A stretch of DNA of 64,000 nt. It comes from Lophium mytilinum (taxonomy: Eukaryota). Position 1 is the first letter of the stretch. Each line of letters begins with the position of its first letter. This document shows, one piece after another, positions 17,263 through 30,779 of the stretch. Below the pieces are notes generated by a model. That model saw nothing but the letters and a program-made list of their open reading frames with translations, ran no database searches and was not told where the DNA came from. The stretch spans positions 1,550,001 through 1,614,000 of the forward strand of contig MU004183.1 in assembly GCA_010093605.1 (NCBI GenBank). The letters are read 5' to 3'. The position numbers were made by a program, and so were the translations under genes.

Positions 17263-18802
17263 GGTGAAGGGATCTCAAGGGGATCTGGAAGGGAACAGAA
17301 CGCTGGAAGATGTAATTGAGAAATAGAAGAGCAGCTTTAAGTGAGCGGAACTGCGGCTGAGGGGCGTAGTCAGCTCTGGTGAGGAGGATGTTATGATGAG
17401 GAGCTCTTACAGAGCCGCAGATTTCTAGGGCTGACCCTCCTCAGCTCCCCCGCTAACCCCTCCTGCACACCTCCGAAGCATCACACCGCCACCGCAAGGA
17501 TCGAAATAGACCCGATTTTTGTGCCAGTGGAGCATTCATAGGTGGCATGACTTGGGGAGCCTTTTGACGTAACATTGTAGGTGGCAAGGAGGACGAAAAG
17601 TGTGTGGAAGGCGCCTCTATCCACCCTCAACAACGACTCCGACGCGCATACCTAAGCTTCCACGTTCCCTATCCTGATGCGAAGCAAATAGCTTCAGCTG
17701 TAGCATCTGCCTAGCAGGCTACGGAGGAAAAATGTACGGTGTGGGAGGCGAGTTTGGAGATCTAGTTTCAATGGGTCGCTGCGATCAGCTTTCCTGGGCG
17801 CAAGTACATTAAATAAACTCACTATCATTGACTCTAGGCACAGCCAAAACCCCCGATATTCTTCACGAACCTACGGCCTACAAGTGACGGACGAGAGACA
17901 GAGCCCGCTGCTAGACAGGACCAGCTCCTACCAGTGCTCTTCGAAAGGATCCTCATCCACAATACTTATCGCACATCACACACACTCAGGCCATATTCAA
18001 GACCCGCGCATACAAATCTGTACCTAGATGACTCCTACAAACAGCATATGGATGGACGGGGCTAGATCGACTAAGCAGTGCTCAAGGGTCACAAGTCGAA
18101 GACAGTCAGTAGGGCAAGACAGCTGCTTTTCAAGACGCAGGACACAGAGGGTAATTGTGGGAAGGAGAACAGCTTAAAGCAATCAGAAGTTGACTGTCTT
18201 CGTTTGACGAGATTCGCAAGTATCTAGATGTAAGGGGGCGCAATCGTAGCAGACAACGTCTTCTTTACCATTTCCCAGTATTTCAGCGACATATCTCACA
18301 TGGGAATGCAGCTCGACTACCCAGAAAGGCCCCTCTCTGGGCCAAACAGCATTTACCGACTCTAGAAGTATCCAAAGTAGACTTGCATCAAGCCCTTCAG
18401 CCTCACTCGACGGCAGCAGACAGCAATTGGTCTTTCCTGGTGTTCCGACTGCTGCGTACCCTGTCGTGCAGCTACCCCTCGATGATCGCAGTCCTATAAT
18501 CATGCTCGCAGAACAACTAAGAGGACTTCCGAGCGAATCGATAGCTCGCGGCAAAGACCGATCGGTACATGCGGGGAGCGGATCCCCAAACCCCAGACTT
18601 CCCCACAGTACCTGACTTCCCCACAGTCATCGGCCTACGCCGACGACATTCATCCTTACGGCGTGACCGGAGAATTGTGGCCATGACTCTCACCCCATAG
18701 GGTTGGGATCACGAGTCATTCTAACTAGCCCTACGAAGATTTGTTCGGGTTCAGACTGGGTAAGAGTGCTTTGCTATTCTGATCGTATCTAGATAGTAGC
18801 AC

Positions 18803-20624
18803 CTACAGGGAGTATCTGAACAGAGGGCTCGCGTCTCCCATATCCATAAGCTCTGCCTCACTATACTTCTCCCTTATGGCATCTAGATCCATTCCATCCC
18901 TCTGCTTGTTGATTCTTGCGCAAAGGAACCGGAGGACGAGCGCTGACAGTATCGCAAGGAGTATGACCCCAAGAGAGAGCCCGTATCCCAGCTGATACCG
19001 CGGAGCTTGCCTCTGAAGATAAATGTTAGAGCCGATTCCACCTGACATGTTAGCGAACGTAAGCTGGATCGCCATCCCAATAGCACGTTTCCAGGATCCT
19101 GCCAGGTTGTTTGCTTTACCACTGATTAGCGATGCTGTGCGGGTTTCTTGTGGGGTTTGTCAACCTACCATTCCACGTTAGGGAGCCACAGACCGGTGCG
19201 TAGATCCCGGCAATGGCTGGGAACAGCATTCCATAAGTCGCTCCTGGATACTTCGGATGAGGCAGAGCAATCAGGGCGATGTAGCCTAGTGCTGCTACAC
19301 AATATGGACCTATCACGAACGGAGCTCGAGCGCGATACCTGTCCGACAGAATGGCACACACGACTGTGCACAAGAGGGCGAAGACGTAAACAGGAATCGT
19401 GAGTAATTGCTATAGCAAGTGTGAGAATTAAGGGAATTCATGTCTGGTTGCGTAGACTTACAGCATTAGATGCTGAATACCCCAACTCATGGATCACCGT
19501 AGGTAGAGTGAATATAAGCCTTGCGAACAGTTAGTACTGACTTGTCAGTAGGTTTTAGAACTTCGAACATACCCATAGCCAGCGATGGGATTTGCCCAAA
19601 GAATGAAAGTCGTCAGATACACCTTCACATCTGTCGCAGCCGCCCACACGTATTTCCACTGGAACGCCTCGTTCGTGTTGACTCGTCCCGTACTTCCACT
19701 GTCTCTACTCAATCTCTGGACTAGAAACCGGCGATTCTCTTCGGTAAGGAAGCGCGCTGTTTCTGGGCTATCTGGGAGGCAGAAGGGGAGTACGCAGGCT
19801 ACAATGACGGTTACTATGCCTTCAAGGATGAAGATCCTAACAAAATTAGCCCATTTTGACCTGCAAAAGTTTAAGGATATTCATGGCATACCATCTCCAC
19901 CCCGCAAGACCGCCTACTCCATCCATCTTGATAATTGCATAGGCGAGTAGTCCGGAGAAGGCACCCGCCAAAGTGGCAGCGGAATAGAAAAACGCCATAC
20001 GACTTTGCAGTTCCCGGCGACAGTACCAGTTAGTCAGAAGATAAGTTGCTCCTGGAAACAGTCCAGCCTCTGTGAACCCGAGGAATATTCGAACAATGAG
20101 CAGGCCATGATATCCTTTGACGATGCCCGATAACCTACTACCGTTAGCCAAAGGCTGATTGAATTAGCCGCCATAACTCACGTCATGACGGTTCCCCAAG
20201 CGACCATCAAAATCGGGATATAAATCGATGGCCGTAGGATCTTAAGTATAATGTTGCTCGGCACCTCGAATACTGCGTACGGAATAAAAAACATTGTTAG
20301 ACACAGGTTGAATTGCGCGGGCGTAAGGTTCAGGTCTTTTTCTAGGCCGGCCACCCTGGCATTCCCGACTGTGATAGACGTTAGAAGAGAACTCCTTCTT
20401 TGAGCGGAGCTGGTTCGTAACTCACTATTTCCACGATCCAAAAACGAGAGAAGATAGATAATACTCAGAAGCGGAAGAAGACGCCAGTCCACCTGGCGCA
20501 AGATCCTTTTCACTTCAGCGTCGTCGTATTGAATATCTTGACTCAAGTCCGCTTCTTCTTTTACTCCTTCTATCATTACGACATCTTCCTTCACATCTCC
20601 AGGATATTCCGTTTTGGAAGCCAT
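18803..20624 (-). CDS. MFS transporter, anion:cation symporter (Dal5/Tna1-like) family
   Basis: VDWRLLP, FLDRGN, FEVPSN, RIFLGFTEAGLFPG, AGAFSGLLAYAI, GWRW and terminal FRY motifs across several exons. Confidence 0.92.
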
Positions 20625-22790
20625 AGCTTGATGGTAGAAGTTGAGAGATGCTGACTAGTCAATTGAGAATTCAGTCAAAGTACACACAAGCACATTTTAT
20701 GCGGAGACTGCTAAGGTTAAATGCAAAATGCACTTCAAAGCGGATCGGCAAATCCTTGATCGGTTAAGGGTTTCCCTCGCAGTTCTTCCCTGATGCTGCA
20801 CCTGGGCACACATCACTTGCTCGGCGAAGGCCGATGGCATGGCATTTACCGAGCTTTGACCGCTACCTGCGCCTGTATGCCCCACGATCGCTCGTGGTGT
20901 AAAAAGGTTGTTCTATCTTCGCTTATAATGTTGGAACTACTGAATTATGGCTGTGCTATGATGGTTGGCCATCGAACGCCATGGCTCAAATCTCAGGTGC
21001 ACTTTGGGATGATTTCAAAGTAATTCTGTGACCACGCGTCACTTCTTCGGGTTTCTTGCATGTTGTTCTCGCTTGATGATCGTCACTTTTCATCGCGGGT
21101 TAGCGAGCTTAGTTCTCCCGCTAGATCTCATAGTTTCCCCATACTTCTCCTTCACCACCTGTCACTCTCCCCACCACTTCCACTGCCGCCGCAATTCCTA
21201 CTACCAAGACTCCCTCCCATCAATCTCATAAACATGTTTCCAAAGATTACTAAGATGATGGCGGCTCCAAGATTTGCGCCGTCGGAGACAGATGTTGTCG
21301 CTGCAGTGGATTTCGATCAAGATGTGGCAGTCGCTGGAATTGGATGCAGACTCATGGACTCGAAATAGTTCGCGCTAACGACCGAGATACTTCTCGGGGG
21401 GGCCCCGACGCCTTTAGCGATGCAGTGGTCAGTGTAGTCCAAGACTTGTGTGCTGCTCTGGTACAGTACCAGGTGTAGTGTCGGCGTTAGCATAGGGTCT
21501 GGCTGACCTTGGGGACACTGCCGCCGCCTCCCCCGCATTCCTTAGCCGCGTACTGTACGAGTGGCAGGTTCTGGGTGCGAGTGATCAGTTCATTGCTCTG
21601 GAGAAGTAGCTAGGGAGGTACAGGTGATGGTAGGTGTTGTAAGGTTATGTAATGTCTAGGATTTCAGTCCTGTCAGTCAATGACGGGGCGCTCTTTTTCA
21701 ACATTAGCAATATTTGGTAAAACTTACTCTCCTTCTTCTGGACAGCAGTACACTTGGTTTACATCCGGATCGTTAAGAGGCTGTGGCGGGCGCTGCGTCA
21801 AGATGAACAGTCCCTTCGCTTGAGGCCTGGTCGATCAAGCTCGCGTGAGGCGTTGGCGGACGCTGCGCAAGAGACTTGTGATGTTGGATACGATGATAAA
21901 GTCTGTCTCGACCACCACCATGTCAGCACTCAGCACTCAGCACTCATCATTCAGCAGCCAGCACTCAAAAGAGTGTATACGAGTATTTATCCAGTGAGCG
22001 GGGACTGGGCTCCTCATTGTAGACTTCATCCTCGATACACCAGCTAAGCTTGAGCTATATCCGTACCTTGTCCAGGAAGAAGGGATTTCATTCACGGCCC
22101 TACGAATTGCATTTGCACAAGCTTTAAAAAGTCCCACCGAGACACGAATATTATGTCAGTAACCACAACGCGTTGCTTGATTTTGATATCTTGTCGATAT
22201 AGGGTTCAGTCAGAACGTGCAGGTGGTACATATTCGAGAGCGATGACGCCAATATGTAGCACATCTTAATATATAACAGCCTAAGCTGCTGTTTGGTCCA
22301 GAAACTTCACCATTAAACTGCGGCCTCAAATCTAAAGATCTGGAATACTGTAGTTGTAGGTATAGAACTGAAGAGTTTGAGGCCATTTCTTTGTGGGAGT
22401 AATGCGATAGACTCCTTCTCGAAGACGTTCAAATGCCAGATTTCATCCGTAGTTGAAATCAGAAACAAGATAAAACATGCAGGCCATAAACATCCATCTC
22501 AAATTATCTTGGGAATGGTGACCCGGGATACCGGTTTCGGGATGCCGGTCATCGAAGGATCTCCGTCGGGTGCAACTTCGCTCCACCACTGCTACCACAC
22601 CTCACCCCGCAATCCAAGACGAGTCATGCAGCGAATGCAGCCTCTTTTAAGATCAAAATTCCTAGTAAGTCAGTACACGAGGTGCGATTTCCAAAGCACC
22701 TCTTGCCCTATTCTCCACTATCCACCGACCATTCTTCGAGCTCGTTTCCCCCACTTCCACTTCCGCTCCCTATCATCAACTCCCATCAAA

Positions 22791-23897
22791 ATGTACAGTC
22801 CCAAAGTTGGCGACAGGCTAGAAAGCCTCGACACCCCTTCAATGGTTGTCGACCTCGATATAATGGAAGAAAACATCCGCAAACTCATGAATCTCCTAAA
22901 GCCGCACGGCGTCAACATCCGCCCCCATCTCAAGACGACCAAAAGCCCCATCCTCGCCAAAAAGCTCATCGCCGCCGGCGCAAAAGGCGGATGCGTGGCT
23001 AAGCTTAGCGAAGCAGAGGTCATCGCCGCAGAGGGCGTCGACGACCTACTGATCACGTGCGAGATCATTGGGCCGGCCAAGGTCGCGCGGCTGGTGGAGC
23101 TGTTTCGGAAGTATCCTAAGATTCGGACGGTGGTTGATAGCGAGGTGGGGGGTACTGCTATCAACGAGGCTTTGGCTGCGTCTGGGATCGAGGAGCCGAT
23201 TCAGACTCTCATCGATCTAGATGTTGGGTTAGAACGCACTGGTATCGCGCCAGAGTCGGCTCTGGCTCTCGCGCAGCATATCTCGACTCTCAAGCACTTA
23301 AAGCTTATCGGTGTGCAAGGCTACGAAGGGCACCTGCAACACGTCCACGGCCGTGAGGAGCGAGAAAAGGAGTGCCGTGCCTCGATGGCGATCCTCACGG
23401 GCACAGCCAACATGTTACGGGAGAAGGGGTTTAACATCCAAGTCGTCACCACCGGCGGGACCGGCACAGCGGAGTTCTGCGCGACCACGCCCGGCATCAC
23501 CGAAGTGCAGCCTGGCTCTTTCATATTCATGGACTCGGATTACCGCAACGCCGTGGGCACTTTCTTCTCGCACAGCCTCACGATCCTATCGACAGCCATC
23601 AGCAAGTCCGGCTCGGAACGACGAGTGACGATAGACGCAGGCCTCAAATCACTGACCACGGACAGCGGGTTTGCGGAGCCGCTGGATATGCCCGGTGTCA
23701 CTTACGAGCCCATGGGCGACGAGCATGGCTGGCTGAGCTGGGAAGAAGGCGGCACTGACCTACCCATTGGAGCGCGCGTGCACATGATCCCAAGCCACAT
23801 CGATCCAACCGTCAACCTGCACGACTTCTACTACGCTTACCGGAAAGGAGTCATTGAGGAGATATGGCCGGTTGCAACTCGGGGTAAAGTTCAATAG
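22791..23897 (+). CDS. Fold-type III PLP enzyme, D-threonine aldolase / 3-hydroxy-D-aspartate aldolase / DSD1 family
   Basis: Intronless. LDTP, RPHLK (PLP Lys), QGYEGH, GGTGT, EVQPGSFIFMD, DAGLKS, DEHG and PSHIDPTVNLH. In-frame upstream ATG at 22626. Confidence 0.9.
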   Translation: MYSPKVGDRLESLDTPSMVVDLDIMEENIRKLMNLLKPHGVNIRPHLKTTKSPILAKKLIAAGAKGGCVAKLSEAEVIAAEGVDDLLITCEIIGPAKVARLVELFRKYPKIRTVVDSEVGGTAINEALAASGIEEPIQTLIDLDVGLERTGIAPESALALAQHISTLKHLKLIGVQGYEGHLQHVHGREEREKECRASMAILTGTANMLREKGFNIQVVTTGGTGTAEFCATTPGITEVQPGSFIFMDSDYRNAVGTFFSHSLTILSTAISKSGSERRVTIDAGLKSLTTDSGFAEPLDMPGVTYEPMGDEHGWLSWEEGGTDLPIGARVHMIPSHIDPTVNLHDFYYAYRKGVIEEIWPVATRGKVQ

Positions 23898-24070
23898 GGG
23901 GGGGCTCCATACTGCAATTAAAATACTGGAGCTCTACGAGCTCTATCATTCCAATCTAACCACTGTATGCGTCTAGGAAGAATAATTAACCCATATCTAC
24001 CCCTCTTTGAGAATTCTATAAAGAGAAGAGTGTAGATTCCGCACATGAAATGCCTCCTTTTGTACATCAC

Positions 24071-26062
24071 CTAACCACCTGGAACAACCACCTCCCTTCC
24101 AGGGCCCTTCTTAACGCTTCTCCATTCGATGAAGCACGTGCACAAGAACGCCACCGCGCACACCGCTACTACCACTCTGTAGGTATCCTTCAATCCTGCC
24201 GTGTACGCCACCAGGACGTTGTGCAATTGGCCCTCCTGTCCAATATCCTTCAACACTCCTCGGATAGCCGTCGCGCCGGTATTGATCATCAGCTTCGGCG
24301 GGAGAGTGGATGCGTGTTCCGCGAGCCCTTTGATAAATCCGTTCTGGAAGACAGATTGGCCGACCGCGATGAAAAGGGCGCCACCGAGCGACTGGAAGAA
24401 CATGACTGTCACAGTTCCGATCGGGATGTCCTCCATGGGCAAAACGGTCTTTGTTCAGGTCAGTGCGTGCTGTGAAAAATGTCCTCATAGAGTACTTACC
24501 TGGACTGCGACGAGCGGGACGTTGAAGCCGACACCTGCGCCTAGGCCCGTGACGATCTGGTAGCCGAACCACTTGCCAAACACAGTATCAACCTCGAATG
24601 TCGAGATCAGCCCAGCACCGACGGTCATCAGTGCCGCGCTGAAGATGATGACGGGTGCGTAGGCACCCACGACTTGGCAGTACACGCCGGCGAGAATAGA
24701 GGTCAAGACGGAGGCCAGCATGAGCGGGAGGATCTGGATGCCGGATTTGGTGGGCGAAGAGCCCTTGACTGCTTGGAGGTAGAGCGGGAGATAATACATC
24801 AACACAAAAATTCCGCCACCGAAGAAGAAGACGAAGCCGGCGGCAGAGGCGACGGTGCGCTGCTTCAGGATACGTGGTGGGATAGTGGCTTTGTCGCCAA
24901 GGTAGATTTGCGACGCGACGAAAAGGATGAGCATGAGGCCTGCGCCGACAAAGAGCCCGATGATGTGCCCGCTGTTCCAGGGGTAGGTGTTACCGCCCCA
25001 CTGGACTGCGAGGAGGAGCATGATGATGCCTGGGACGAGGATGGAGGCGCCGATGAGGTCGAGTTCCTTGATGCGGTCGATGTACTTCTTGTTCGAGTCT
25101 TCGGGATTGCGAGGGAGATGAAGCACAAAGATTACGACGGCCGCGGAAAATGCGCCGATAGGCAAGCTAAATTAAGTCAGTGAGAAGCTACCCTCGGGAA
25201 ATCAATTGACGAACTTGATGTAGAAACACCATCTCCAGGAGACCTCTTGAGTAAACACGCCTCCCAAAAGAGGGCCAGCTATCGAAGCCAACCCCCACAT
25301 GGCGCCGAAAGCGCCGAAGACCATGGGCCTCTGATGTAGAGGTACTATTTCATAAGGGTTAGACGACGCCTCCGAAAGTCCAATCAGCAGATTGGCTACT
25401 TACGAGAATGCGCGATGATGACTAGACCTCCCGAGAAGATACCGCCAACTCCCATACCAGCAATGGCCCGTCCGACAATAAGCGCAGTGCTCGATGGCGC
25501 GACAGCACAGATGAGAGACCCAAGTTCAAAGACGCCAATAGCTATCAAGAAGACGGTTTTGATCTGAAGTGTTTGAATGGCATCAGCACGGTTCATTGAC
25601 ATAAAAGATCGAACTCATCGGAGGGGTACAAACATCAAAAACTTTGTATATCCGACCAAAACTGGGCTGCAGCGACGTGCTCGTCAAAAAGTACGCACTC
25701 CCATACCATCCAATATCCGAAATGGATTTGAAGTGGTCGGTGATTTTCGGGATGGCGGTTGCGATGATGGTTTGATCCAGAGCAACTAGAAACACGGCCA
25801 GACAGAGCGCAATGATCAACGTGACGAGTTTGATGCCAGTAACATGCCCCGCGGTCTCATCCACAGGTTCAGCTTTCTCCTCATCGGCCAAGTCAGATCC
25901 ATTTTCAACGTGTGCGGCGGTTTCCTTGCTGATATCGTTGTCGTTGTCGTGTAGCGAGGATACTGCGGCACTCTTTGACTCGCCAAGGACGGATGGTTCC
26001 AATTCGCTCTTCTCGTAGTCCGGGACTTGTGCCTCCACCTTGGGCGATGGAGCTTCTCCCAT
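24071..26062 (-). CDS. MFS drug:H+ antiporter, DHA2 (AflT/GliA-like) efflux pump
   Basis: [42 protein letters not shown] and [12 protein letters not shown] across several exons. Confidence 0.93.
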
Positions 26063-28187: not shown

Positions 28188-30779
28188 TCAGTCTGCCCCC
28201 GACCCCTTCCATCTCTTCCTCATCGTAATCCCAAAACTCTCCCCATCCTTCAACAGCCCAACGCCAACCTCCATATCCCTCGTCCCTCTCATCTCCAACT
28301 CGCTCTTGATCTCCTTATCCATCGCACGCGAGCTCCCACGCACCAACTCCTCCGTTTCCGGTCCAAGCACCTGCGCGACGTTCGCCCAGTCGTTGCCGAG
28401 CATCGAGAACTGCGTCTTCCAGACAAACAGCGTCGCGATGACTGTGAAGATTAAGGTTTGGAGGAGTATAAGAATGACGACGGCCGTGAAGCCGCGTGTG
28501 TCTTGGGGGTATAGTACATTTGAGAAGAAGACGAATGTTGCGTTGCCCTTTTTCGTGTATGCAGGAAACTGGTCGTAGTATGCCATACTGCTGAGGATTG
28601 TGAGTAGAGAGGACATGGTTGATGCAATGGAGCCGTTTTGAGCCATGGCCTCGAGGAAGAAGGAGGAAAGAGCTGGGTCTGGGAGGGTACAGTTCGTGAT
28701 GCCGGGGGGAAAGGCGAGACCGATAGACGGGTCGAATACAAGGGCCGACCAGTTGCCGTTTAAACGGCTGCTCTCGAACCTTGTGGGGTCTGGGTCATGT
28801 AGGACTGTTTGGTTTGAAGTCTCGTTGGTGAAGGTGTGGGCGGAAATTAGCTCTGTGCGTTCTCTGTTTCGCAGTCCATATCCAGACATATCCGCGAAGG
28901 CCTGGACGGGAGGCTGCTGCTGTATAGGAGCAGCATCGTCATTTGTAGGTATCCATGTCGTTTCTGACAGATTCAGGACGTTGCGAGCTTCTAGAGAAGT
29001 GACGTTAGGGTGCTGGCCCATTTGGATTCGTAATTCCGAGAAATCGTAGCGGGAAGAGCCGTGGTTTATGCGAGCGATAGGTTCCTGCCGGCTGGAGTCC
29101 GAAGACATGTGAATACTCAAGTCGGCGGTCTGCCACGATGTGTAGCAAAGAGATACGCTAATAGTCTGGTTGAACAGGACGATATTGTCCGAAGCAGAAT
29201 CAGCTACCTCCATCCTCGTGGTGATGTTGAGCCATTCCGACTCAGAAGGTTCGAGGTGTGTGCGCGTGTTGTTTTGCTGATCGGTGGAATAGTCTTGTAT
29301 ACTTTTAATGGCAGCGAGGCCCTGTTCATCAAAGGATCGAAAGATAAGATAGGTAGGTCCCCATGACGGAAGGGTGTCGAATGGTGTCGGTGCCATCTGA
29401 TCGACAGTGACGTTTGTGAGCCTGCTTTTCAGACTTCCAGCAGTCTCCCCTGGTACTGCCGCAAGCATGTCATGGAGGCCCTCTTTCTCGAAATCCTGAC
29501 TCCAGATCAAATACTGAAGCCCCTGAATCTGACATATGGAGTACGATGCAACCCCAACTAGATATTTACACTCGAAAGATATTGGGTCTGGTGGTGTCCA
29601 GAGGTCCGGAACCTCCGTCGAATTGGTAAATATCCCAGAGACGGTCCATATCAGGCTCCCCGTCTGGTCCATGGTCTTCTCAACCCCAATAGTCACGTTT
29701 ACAGTTTCGAAATCAGGCTGCTGACATGAGACTCGAGAATCTACAACAAAAGCCGACCCGGTGTATTTTCGAACGGTTTGTCGAGACTGAGCATCTGTGA
29801 AGGGCATGAATGCACGGAGGGTATACCCGGTGTCATCTACTTTTTCTTTCTTCGGCACTGCTTCGGTATATTCCCCGAAAGCGGGATAGAACGGAGGATT
29901 CCTAGCCCATGATATGCCACGGTGGATAAGGGGAGCATTTGTTAGTTGGTATAGATCCCAGCCTTGAACATCCCCAACACGTGCTATTGTGTTATATTCG
30001 AAGTCATAGAAGAAGGTTCTGTTCTTCGAATAGCCTTCAAGAAGACCAAGTTTCAGATCGGAGAGTAGGGCCGTAGAGCTAAATTGAAGCAGTATGGTGG
30101 TAGTCGTCAAAAGGATTATTAATGGCAGAAAAAGGTAGTGCGTGATTCCGCCTTTCTCCCGGGAACCAAAGAACATGGGCAGGAGGAGTCGCCAGGGTGA
30201 AGCCATTCCGGATCTCATGACAGAAACAGCTGCCGAGTCGCAAAGGCGCACAGCATAGGATTCTAACGCCAGAGCTGCCAGCATGGATGCCCCAATTCCA
30301 GCGATGAAGTCGATGATAGTGCGAATGATCATAGCAGAGATGGATACTGCCCGAGTGGCCCATTGGTTGACCATGAGATAGTGCCAGTTGCCATTGGAAG
30401 AGTCGGAGAACCATAAGAAGACTAGAACTTCAATAAGAGTCAAAGCAACGACGGGAGTAGCGACCAGAAGTGTGATTGCAAGCCAACCAAGCTTGTGCCG
30501 CAACTTAATATTGGCCTTACGCTTTTGAGGCTGCTTTAGGTCATTCGGAGACAACGGGCTTTGAGGAGTATTTGGAGAATATCGAGACGATCTAGTATTG
30601 AAACGTCCATGTTCAGATTCGGGAGAAAGCAGAAGTCGATCGGTAAGAGCGTCGGCGTCTGAGTCCGTCCTGCGATGGTTGGGCAAGCGGAGCGTCGACG
30701 CGATATCTGATATGCTCTCAAATGATCGCCGGTGCTGCGGTGAGATCAACCCTAGATCATCCAGCTCATGATCCGCCAT
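28188..30779 (-). CDS. Uncharacterised 863-aa membrane glycoprotein
   Basis: Single 2.6-kb ORF. About three N-terminal hydrophobic helices, a large sequon-rich domain and a C-terminal TM helix. Confidence 0.85.
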   Translation of the reverse strand: MADHELDDLGLISPQHRRSFESISDIASTLRLPNHRRTDSDADALTDRLLLSPESEHGRFNTRSSRYSPNTPQSPLSPNDLKQPQKRKANIKLRHKLGWLAITLLVATPVVALTLIEVLVFLWFSDSSNGNWHYLMVNQWATRAVSISAMIIRTIIDFIAGIGASMLAALALESYAVRLCDSAAVSVMRSGMASPWRLLLPMFFGSREKGGITHYLFLPLIILLTTTTILLQFSSTALLSDLKLGLLEGYSKNRTFFYDFEYNTIARVGDVQGWDLYQLTNAPLIHRGISWARNPPFYPAFGEYTEAVPKKEKVDDTGYTLRAFMPFTDAQSRQTVRKYTGSAFVVDSRVSCQQPDFETVNVTIGVEKTMDQTGSLIWTVSGIFTNSTEVPDLWTPPDPISFECKYLVGVASYSICQIQGLQYLIWSQDFEKEGLHDMLAAVPGETAGSLKSRLTNVTVDQMAPTPFDTLPSWGPTYLIFRSFDEQGLAAIKSIQDYSTDQQNNTRTHLEPSESEWLNITTRMEVADSASDNIVLFNQTISVSLCYTSWQTADLSIHMSSDSSRQEPIARINHGSSRYDFSELRIQMGQHPNVTSLEARNVLNLSETTWIPTNDDAAPIQQQPPVQAFADMSGYGLRNRERTELISAHTFTNETSNQTVLHDPDPTRFESSRLNGNWSALVFDPSIGLAFPPGITNCTLPDPALSSFFLEAMAQNGSIASTMSSLLTILSSMAYYDQFPAYTKKGNATFVFFSNVLYPQDTRGFTAVVILILLQTLIFTVIATLFVWKTQFSMLGNDWANVAQVLGPETEELVRGSSRAMDKEIKSELEMRGTRDMEVGVGLLKDGESFGITMRKRWKGSGAD

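What the first reader, a model, noticed from the sequence alone, without database searches (positions are those of the whole stretch)
22791..23897. Bacterial-type D-threonine-aldolase-like enzyme in a fungus: horizontal transfer candidate
Seen: intronless between intron-rich neighbours, with motifs QGYEGH, GGTGT, EVQPGSFIFMD, DEHG and PSHIDPTVNLH. Known: bacterial D-threonine aldolase binds its metal through H-x-D, while yeast Dsd1 D-serine dehydratase uses H-x-C. This protein has H-I-D. Inference: an aldolase for beta-hydroxy-D-amino acids, acquired from bacteria and distinct from fungal Dsd1.
Basis: partly seen in the sequence, partly recalled or inferred. Interest (0 to 1): 0.7.

Follow-up and report, generated by a model that had tools for sequence, protein, structure and literature searches.

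The report
Bacteria-derived D-threonine aldolase-like fungal enzyme
This fungal gene encodes a vitamin-B6 enzyme that probably splits D-threonine-type amino acids and came long ago from soil bacteria; the transfer was already listed in print, and what is added here is the likely donor group.

Summary
The ORF (22791-23897, 368 aa, intronless) and all five motifs are real. It is a fold-type III PLP enzyme closest to D-threonine aldolase (DTA; PDB 4v15, TM 0.94). It keeps 12 of 13 named DTA active-site residues, including the His-x-Asp metal pair and the His193 base that dehydratases lack. The genome has a separate, intron-bearing His-x-Cys Dsd1-like gene.

Bacterial origin holds. Fungal copies form one clade (99/97) inside Chloroflexota sequences, and a non-nested tree is rejected (AU p=0.003). 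The nearest bacteria are Ca. Chloroheliales (70-75% identity), where the gene is syntenic and largely tracks the species tree.

It is not a private or recent acquisition. Homologues occur in five Pezizomycotina classes. Naranjo-Ortiz et al. 2016 (Supplementary Table 2) already list this bacteria-to-fungi event and label part of it 'threonine aldolase'; one accession matches exactly. New here are the donor, the Leotiomycete and Lecanoromycete members, and three invariant substitutions (A70, E179, H181) that separate this subfamily from solved DTAs. The substrate is untested. It is not BhcC. A new member of a known kind, of modest interest.

The parts
22791..23897 (+). Intronless CDS, 368 aa, fold-type III PLP enzyme (alanine-racemase-like barrel plus D-ser_dehydrat beta domain), DTA-like
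   Evidence: start confirmed against homologues
22920..22934 (+). RPHLK, with Lys48 = AxDTA Lys59, the PLP Schiff-base lysine
   Evidence: alignment, role; K in 248 of 248 close homologues
22998..23000 (+). Ala70, in place of AxDTA Gln81 (PLP O3' contact); subfamily-specific
   Evidence: A in 248 of 248 close homologues, Q in 20 of 20 classical-DTA-clade proxies
23316..23342 (+). QGYEGHLQH: Tyr178 = Tyr187 (stacks PLP), His184 = His193 (proposed base); Glu179 and His181 replace His188 and Ser190
23454..23468 (+). GGTGT phosphate loop, Thr224 = Thr233
23502..23543 (+). EVQPGSFIFMD..Y: Gln240, Gly242, Ser243, Tyr251 = Gln249, Gly251, Ser252, Tyr260
23718..23729 (+). DEHG, Asp310 = Asp321 (backbone contact to the substrate carboxylate)
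23790..23822 (+). PSHIDPTVNLH: His336 and Asp338 = the Mn ligands His347 and Asp349
   Evidence: H and D in 247 of 248 close homologues, one gap
18803..20624 (-). Divergent neighbour: MFS transporter (Dal5/ACS-like by recalled motif); not a conserved neighbour
   Evidence: no match to it in 35 fungal-type loci
24071..26062 (-). Convergent neighbour: MFS_1/TRI12-like efflux transporter with 4 spliced introns; not a conserved neighbour

Best explanation
A cytosolic, PLP- and divalent-metal-dependent aldolase for small beta-hydroxy-D-amino acids (D-Thr or D-allo-Thr most likely), working like AxDTA. The substrate displaces Lys48 from PLP and its carboxylate is held by Arg149 and the Asp310 backbone. 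[quoted passage not shown] Its likely role is scavenging or detoxifying D-amino acids. The gene entered Pezizomycotina once from a branch of Ca. Chloroheliales (Chloroflexota), took on fungal base composition, stayed intronless in the loci seen, and was then reshuffled among fungi by loss, duplication or fungus-to-fungus transfer. Shown: fold, residue conservation, separation from Dsd1, nesting in bacteria. Inferred: reaction, substrate, metal, role, and the exact donor branch.
For: Fold and residues: best PDB sequence hits are DTA 262/218/189 bits and BhcC 189, against dehydratases at 119 or less. The model (pLDDT 96.7) matches 4v15 at TM 0.94 and rmsd 1.6, against 0.87-0.89 for dehydratases. 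12 of 13 AxDTA residues named in PMC4401734 are kept; that paper says the dehydratase has His/Cys and lacks His193. Origin: the 80 best prokaryotic loci are led by four Chloroflexota at 69-75%, on bacterial contigs that share a downstream beta-lactamase-like gene, 4 of 4. The gene is found in 9 of 9 genomes of that genus and 12 of 16 of the order; NCBI files 54-19 under Ca. Chloroheliales. The gene tree recovers three RpoB groups fully and one partly. Fungal clade 99/97 inside a fungi-plus-Chloroheliales clade 100/99; near bacteria held together as one clade rejected, AU p=0.0031. The window carries eukaryote-specific genes, so this is not contamination.
Against: No activity data, and no assay of this subfamily was found in the papers searched. 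Ala70, Glu179 and His181 differ from all four solved aldolases and are nearly invariant (248, 247 and 248 of 248), so specificity may differ. His184 is replaced in 15 of 76 more distant bacterial members that keep His-x-Asp. The clade lies apart from the classical DTA/BhcC proxies at about 40% identity. The order within the donor group is not fixed: AU p=0.104 for Chloroheliales joined with the Rhizodiscina group and p=0.098 for a monophyletic Chloroheliales group. One FastTree run put the bacteria among fungal rows. With 7 fungal rows, fungal monophyly fell to 86/63. G009 is misplaced in the gene tree. No conserved catabolic neighbourhood points to a substrate.
Confidence: 0.6

Rival explanations
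1. Same bacterial origin but a different reaction or substrate. The A70/E179/H181 subfamily is mainly a beta-eliminating dehydratase, a racemase/epimerase, or an aldolase for another substrate such as a polar or hydroxy-acid side chain read by His181/Glu179.
For: The three substitutions are nearly invariant in 248 close homologues and 80 bacterial loci and absent from the solved DTAs and BhcC. His at the Ser190 position is also seen in the genome's Dsd1-like protein (YSHLGHSY; my by-eye register). His184 is variable in distant members.
Against: His-x-Asp, His184 and Tyr178 stacking are all aldolase-type in the fungal and Chloroheliales rows. Fold and sequence rank aldolases above dehydratases and racemases. 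The fungus already has a Dsd1-type gene.
Confidence: 0.28
2. Two or more independent transfers from related Chloroheliales into different fungi (for example the Rhizodiscina/Podospora didyma group separately from the rest).
For: AU does not reject Chloroheliales plus the Rhizodiscina group (p=0.104). Rhizodiscina is 77% identical to L001 but 74% to the window protein. The three fungal subclades each mix classes. Most rows of the basal group are unnamed.
Against: Fungal rows form one clade at 99/97 and 98/96; 98-100% of bootstrap trees need one change.
Confidence: 0.12
3. Back-transfer: the gene reached fungi from Chloroflexota, and a fungal copy later replaced the native gene in the G001-G004 branch of Chloroheliales.
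For: FastTree nested those bacteria among fungal rows (86-88); AU p=0.104; a long stem leads to fungi plus G001-G004.
Against: Under the mixture model the long fungal rows move inside the fungal clade and the bacteria stay outside. G001/G003/G004 are a true species clade with a long RpoB stem too, and the gene tree largely follows RpoB. The flanking gene is shared, 4 of 4. It needs two transfers instead of one.
Confidence: 0.04
4. A vertically inherited fungal paralogue of Dsd1, or bacterial contamination of the assembly.
For: It shares both Pfam domains with Dsd1 and is intronless.
Against: 25% identity over 105 aa to the genome's own Dsd1-like gene against 75% full-length to Chloroheliales. 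The Dsd1-like row lies outside the 99/98 clade (its branch is saturated). Flanks are spliced fungal genes, and orthologues occur in dozens of named fungi.
Confidence: 0.02

Closest known systems
D-threonine aldolase AxDTA (PDB 4v15; also 7dib Filomicrobium, 7yqa Chlamydomonas), EC 4.1.2.42
   Same: Fold (TM 0.94); Lys59, Arg157, Tyr187, His193, Thr233, Gln249, Gly251, Ser252, Tyr260, Asp321, His347, Asp349 all kept.
   Different: About 39% identity; Gln81 to Ala, His188 to Glu, Ser190 to His, Gln155 to Leu; separate clade from classical-DTA proxies; activity untested.
BhcC, 3-hydroxy-D-aspartate aldolase (PDB 6qkb; NCBIfam NF045642)
   Same: Fold (TM 0.93), His-x-Asp, His193 equivalent.
   Different: 256.9 bits against a cut-off of 690; 31% identity; no bhc-like cluster among conserved neighbours.
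Dsd1-type D-serine dehydratase (chicken 3anu; the genome's own gene at G000:C2 about 1327200-1328800) and Delftia DTHADH (3wqc)
   Same: Same two Pfam domains and metal-site position.
   Different: These use His-x-Cys and lack His193; 24-28% identity; the genome's own copy has two introns read from the sequence. The yeast Dsd1 motif itself is recalled, not checked.
HGT event 'Q0ULH9_PHANO' (with nested 'A2QG89_ASPNC', called 'Threonine aldolase') in Naranjo-Ortiz et al. 2016, PMC5169069 Supplementary Table 2
   Same: Same gene family: its member Q0CFM0_ASPTN is P0065, 73% identical to the window protein. Same direction, bacteria to fungi, with secondary fungus-to-fungus movement proposed.
   Different: Donor given there only as 'Bacteria'; acceptors Dothideomycetes, Eurotiomycetes and Sordariomycetes. 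No Leotiomycete, Lecanoromycete or Chloroflexota appears in the text I could see (two cells were cut at 400 characters).

Membership tests
D-threonine aldolase (fold-type III) | Alanine-racemase-like barrel plus beta domain with PLP lysine | tested here: met
   Lys48
D-threonine aldolase (fold-type III) | Metal ligands His-x-Asp | tested here: met
   His336/Asp338 = His347/Asp349
D-threonine aldolase (fold-type III) | His193 base | tested here: met
   His184; 248 of 248 close homologues
D-threonine aldolase (fold-type III) | All PLP-contact residues conserved, including Gln81 (stated for annotated DTAs in PMC4401734) | tested here: not met
   Gln81 is Ala70; the other 12 named residues are kept
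D-threonine aldolase (fold-type III) | Falls in the clade of characterised DTAs | tested here: inconclusive
   It lies apart from a 20-row proxy clade; no characterised DTA sequence was available to put in a tree
D-threonine aldolase (fold-type III) | Metal-dependent cleavage of D-Thr to glycine and acetaldehyde | not testable with these tools
   needs an assay
BhcC equivalog NF045642 | Score at or above 690 bits | tested here: not met
   256.9 bits
BhcC equivalog NF045642 | bhcABCD cluster context (recalled) | tested here: not met
   window flanks are MFS genes; no such cluster among the 22 largest shared-neighbour groups printed for L001-L080
Dsd1 D-serine dehydratase | His-x-Cys metal site, no His193 | tested here: not met
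   His-Ile-Asp and His184 present; the genome's other gene has His-Ala-Cys
Bacteria-to-fungus horizontal transfer | Nesting inside a bacterial clade with a distant outgroup | tested here: met
   99/98 and 100/99 branches; AU p=0.0031 against non-nesting (group named after the tree was seen)
Bacteria-to-fungus horizontal transfer | Real linkage to host genes (not contamination) | tested here: met
   named fungal orthologues
Bacteria-to-fungus horizontal transfer | Gene native to the donor lineage | tested here: met
   9 of 9 genus, 12 of 16 order, shared flank 4 of 4, gene tree largely follows RpoB
Bacteria-to-fungus horizontal transfer | Absence from fungi outside Pezizomycotina and from other eukaryotes | tested here: inconclusive
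   every named eukaryote in three lists of 120 rows is Pezizomycotina, but only the top 120 of 1826-4198 hits were shown and most rows are unnamed

The most novel reading that the evidence does not exclude
The Ala70/Glu179/His181 clade is an uncharacterised branch of fold-type III enzymes with its own substrate or stereopreference, different from D-threonine aldolase and BhcC. It entered the ancestor of the five sampled Pezizomycotina classes once from inside one genus-level branch of Ca. Chloroheliales, which would tie the age of that bacterial branch to early filamentous ascomycetes and point to an unrecognised D-amino-acid route shared by soil Chloroflexota and fungi.
Probability: 0.2. Interest if true: 0.6.

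Novelty: new member of a known kind. Interest (0 to 1): 0.33.

Why it matters
It gives a named donor for a published but donor-less bacteria-to-fungi transfer, with unusually high cross-domain identity (75%), usable as a relative-time link between Ca. Chloroheliales and Pezizomycotina. It shows that these fungi can carry two fold-type III D-amino-acid enzymes of different origin. It also marks an apparently unassayed, intronless subfamily as a source of D-aldolase biocatalysts; the Fesko review (PMC4761611) says fungal sequence space had not been exploited as of 2016. It is not a new kind of system, and the transfer itself would not surprise a specialist.

Tried and rejected
Mitochondrial presequence from the upstream ATG 22515: rejected, not conserved. 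Composition as evidence of transfer: none, GC3 in range. Functional linkage to the flanking MFS genes: no match in 35 fungal-type loci; that set is biased to the best 80 matches, so their single uninterrupted hits do not show that all fungal copies lack introns. Conserved bacterial operon: none; shared neighbours are lineage-local. Bacteria nested among fungi: read as a long-branch effect, though not rejected by AU. AU test of fungi plus own Dsd1: not run, because the Dsd1 branch is saturated (length 10). EF-G tree: the G006 row was a wrong-frame ORF, so only pairwise identities were used. Expression: no RNA holder listed; run X1 is RNA by guess only, its contig joins two convergent genes, and it does not cover 22255-22859, so no start site or level can be read. 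ESM Atlas returned only the same two Pfam families. Earlier scan findings: none. Paper searches for a fungal DTA transfer or a Chloroflexota donor found only PMC5169069. In PMC11708051 the main text and supplements gave 0 hits for DSD1, D-serine and D-threonine, but file 3 was cut when stored and I saw 10 of 141 'ktedono' and 10 of 23 'aldolase' places, so its listing there is not excluded. The BhcC structure paper was not found, so its specificity residues were not used. Subscription-only papers (for example the 2010 fungal HGT survey, recalled) were not searched.

Full report
OBSERVATION. The frame is open further upstream to an ATG at 22515. The 11 closest metagenome loci all have a stop 3-27 codons before the conserved start and no Met, and 4 of 35 fungal-type loci have an upstream Met, so 22791 is the start and no targeting peptide is supported. 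The neighbours are MFS transporters. One run, RNA by guess, gives a contig with four CT..AC joints in the downstream gene and no gap across 22860-24448; a pattern scan predicts five introns in the upstream gene. The window also carries AGM1, an Eco1-type acetyltransferase, cytochrome c heme lyase and TANGO2, so the context is fungal. GC3 of 0.70 is unremarkable here.

WHAT IT IS. Pfam gives Ala_racemase_N and D-ser_dehydrat. Of 10 PDB sequences matched, the best are D-threonine aldolases (262, 218, 189 bits) and BhcC (189), ahead of the dehydratases (119 or less). An AlphaFold2 model from a 91-row alignment (pLDDT 96.7) matches 4v15 at TM 0.94 and the dehydratases at 0.87-0.89. Passages of PMC4401734 name 13 active-site residues of AxDTA. 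Counted by hand on the alignment, 12 are kept: K48, R149, Y178, H184, T224, Q240, G242, S243, Y251, D310, H336, D338. Gln81 is Ala70. The same paper says the chicken dehydratase uses His and Cys and lacks His193, so both aldolase marks are present. BhcC membership fails (256.9 against 690 bits).

A SEPARATE DSD1. A PF14031 search of G000 finds two genes. The second, on C2, has two introns read from the sequence, a His-Ala-Cys motif, and best PDB matches to 3llx, chicken D-serine dehydratase and DTHADH. It is 25% identical to the window protein over 105 residues (E 0.06). The window gene is therefore not this fungus's Dsd1.

DISTRIBUTION. Three searches, each listing the best 120 of 1826-4198 hits, show named homologues in Leotiomycetes (81-85%), Eurotiomycetes, Dothideomycetes, Sordariomycetes and Lecanoromycetes; two Lachnellula records are already named 'D-threonine aldolase'. 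All named eukaryotes in those lists are Pezizomycotina, but most rows are unnamed, so absence elsewhere is not shown. The best 80 of 157 prokaryotic loci are mostly Chloroflexota (47), Melainabacteria (18) and Deinococcota (7). The top four are 69-75% identical, begin and end with the fungal protein, and share a downstream beta-lactamase-like gene, 4 of 4; the two read in full lie among bacterial genes. NCBI places Chloroflexi bacterium 54-19 in Ca. Chloroheliales. The gene is found in 9 of 9 genomes of its genus and 12 of 16 of its order, at 56-75%. The gene tree of these 12 recovers the RpoB groups G001/G003/G004 (G002 joins by 96% EF-G identity to G001), G005/G008 and G015/G016, and partly G006/G007, with G009 displaced. 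The gene looks native there.

PHYLOGENY. A first FastTree of 344 rows put the four closest bacteria among fungal rows, with two long rows at the base; a tighter FastTree of 298 rows made fungi monophyletic. IQ-TREE under LG+C20 on hand-picked subsets gave fungi as one clade: 99/97 (57 rows), 98/96 (33 rows) and 86/63 (30 rows with distant outgroups). Those three left out the long rows P0121 and P0129. With them included (37 rows) both fell inside a Dothideomycete subclade and the fungal clade stayed at 99/97; P0129 is Pseudovirgaria. Fungi plus the closest Chloroheliales form a 99-100 clade in all four trees. AU tests: near bacteria held as one clade rejected, p=0.0031; Chloroheliales plus the Rhizodiscina group not rejected, p=0.104; Chloroheliales group monophyletic not rejected, p=0.098. 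All three groups were named after seeing trees. So nesting in bacteria is firm, the donor group is likely, and sister versus nested within that group is open. Inside fungi, three subclades each mix classes, which needs duplication and loss or fungus-to-fungus transfer. No characterised DTA, BhcC or yeast Dsd1 sequence could be put in the trees; a 20-row clade scoring 329-531 bits on the BhcC model served as proxy, and the window's clade lies apart from it.

MECHANISM. By homology with the scheme in PMC4401734: transaldimination from Lys48, carboxylate on Arg149 and the Asp310 backbone, beta-OH on the His336/Asp338 metal, deprotonation through His184, and retro-aldol cleavage to glycine plus aldehyde. 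This is inferred. Against a plain DTA label, Ala70, Glu179 and His181 occur in 248, 247 and 248 of 248 proteins at 58% identity or more, while the proxy clade has Gln81 in 20 of 20; His184 is replaced in 15 of 76 more distant bacterial loci. No neighbourhood suggests a pathway. I put aldolase chemistry at about 0.7, bacterial origin at about 0.95, a Chloroheliales donor at about 0.8, and the whole best explanation at 0.6.

PRIOR WORK. In PMC5169069 I read passages and part 1 of 2 of Supplementary Table 2 (long cells cut). That table lists an Ala_racemase_N event from 'Bacteria' to Dothideomycetes, Eurotiomycetes and Sordariomycetes, and a nested Aspergillus event labelled 'Threonine aldolase'. 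Its member Q0CFM0_ASPTN is P0065, 73% identical to the window protein. 'Chloroflex' does not occur in that paper's main text. For PMC11708051 I saw passages and supplement searches with no sign of this family, but the main table was cut when stored. For PMC4401734 and PMC4761611 I saw passages. Other papers were seen as search listings only. Searches returned nothing, so I found no report of the donor within this library; subscription papers were not searched.

VERDICT. The transfer is old, broad and already catalogued; the additions are the Chloroheliales donor, the wider host range and a distinct active-site signature whose substrate is unknown. New member of a known kind; interest 0.33.

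Noticed in passing
window 17500-20538: An RNA-type contig has + strand GT..AG joints (18758-18958, 19498-19552) and runs antisense across the minus-strand MFS gene without removing that gene's predicted introns; possibly a spliced antisense transcript from the divergent AGM1 promoter. One run, strand inferred from splice sites.
   Followed up: partly
G000:C2 about 1327200-1328800 (L082:981-2577): Two-intron Dsd1-like D-serine dehydratase gene with His-Ala-Cys.
   Followed up: yes
G000:C3:796275-796955 (L086): A third Ala_racemase_N match in the genome, without the D-ser_dehydrat domain; perhaps the YggS/PROSC-type protein (recalled guess).
   Followed up: no
Aspergillus flavus records in the cluster of P0095: The homologue has a locus tag next to an 'alginate lyase 2' gene (G4B84_008972 and 008973), and both fall in one sequence cluster, probably through a fused gene model.
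   Followed up: no
L040 / P0122, P0273: In a Polyangiaceae record the enzyme is fused behind an N-terminal GNAT acetyltransferase, 519 aa, hinting at coupled handling of D-amino acids.
   Followed up: no
L001-L004, just downstream of the gene: Conserved class A beta-lactamase-like / D-Ala-D-Ala carboxypeptidase-like serine hydrolase beside the Chloroheliales gene.
   Followed up: partly
L009, L010, L011, L014, L046, upstream of the gene: In five Chloroflexota (mostly Ktedonobacteria) loci the gene lies next to a two-subunit ThDP-decarboxylase-like pair and a cyclase-like ORF (names read from motifs, recalled, not scanned).
   Followed up: no
fungal gene tree: Tothia (Dothideomycetes) falls among Leotiomycetes, Podospora didyma joins Rhizodiscina, Fusarium joins Aspergillus flavus; candidates for fungus-to-fungus transfer or hidden paralogy.
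   Followed up: partly
window 21060-21368 and 21919-22143: A 102-aa ORF without a Pfam match and two low-depth contigs lie in the 2.1 kb gap upstream of the gene.
   Followed up: partly
window 28188-30779 (-): An uninterrupted 863-aa ORF with predicted-looking membrane segments and no Pfam match.
   Followed up: no
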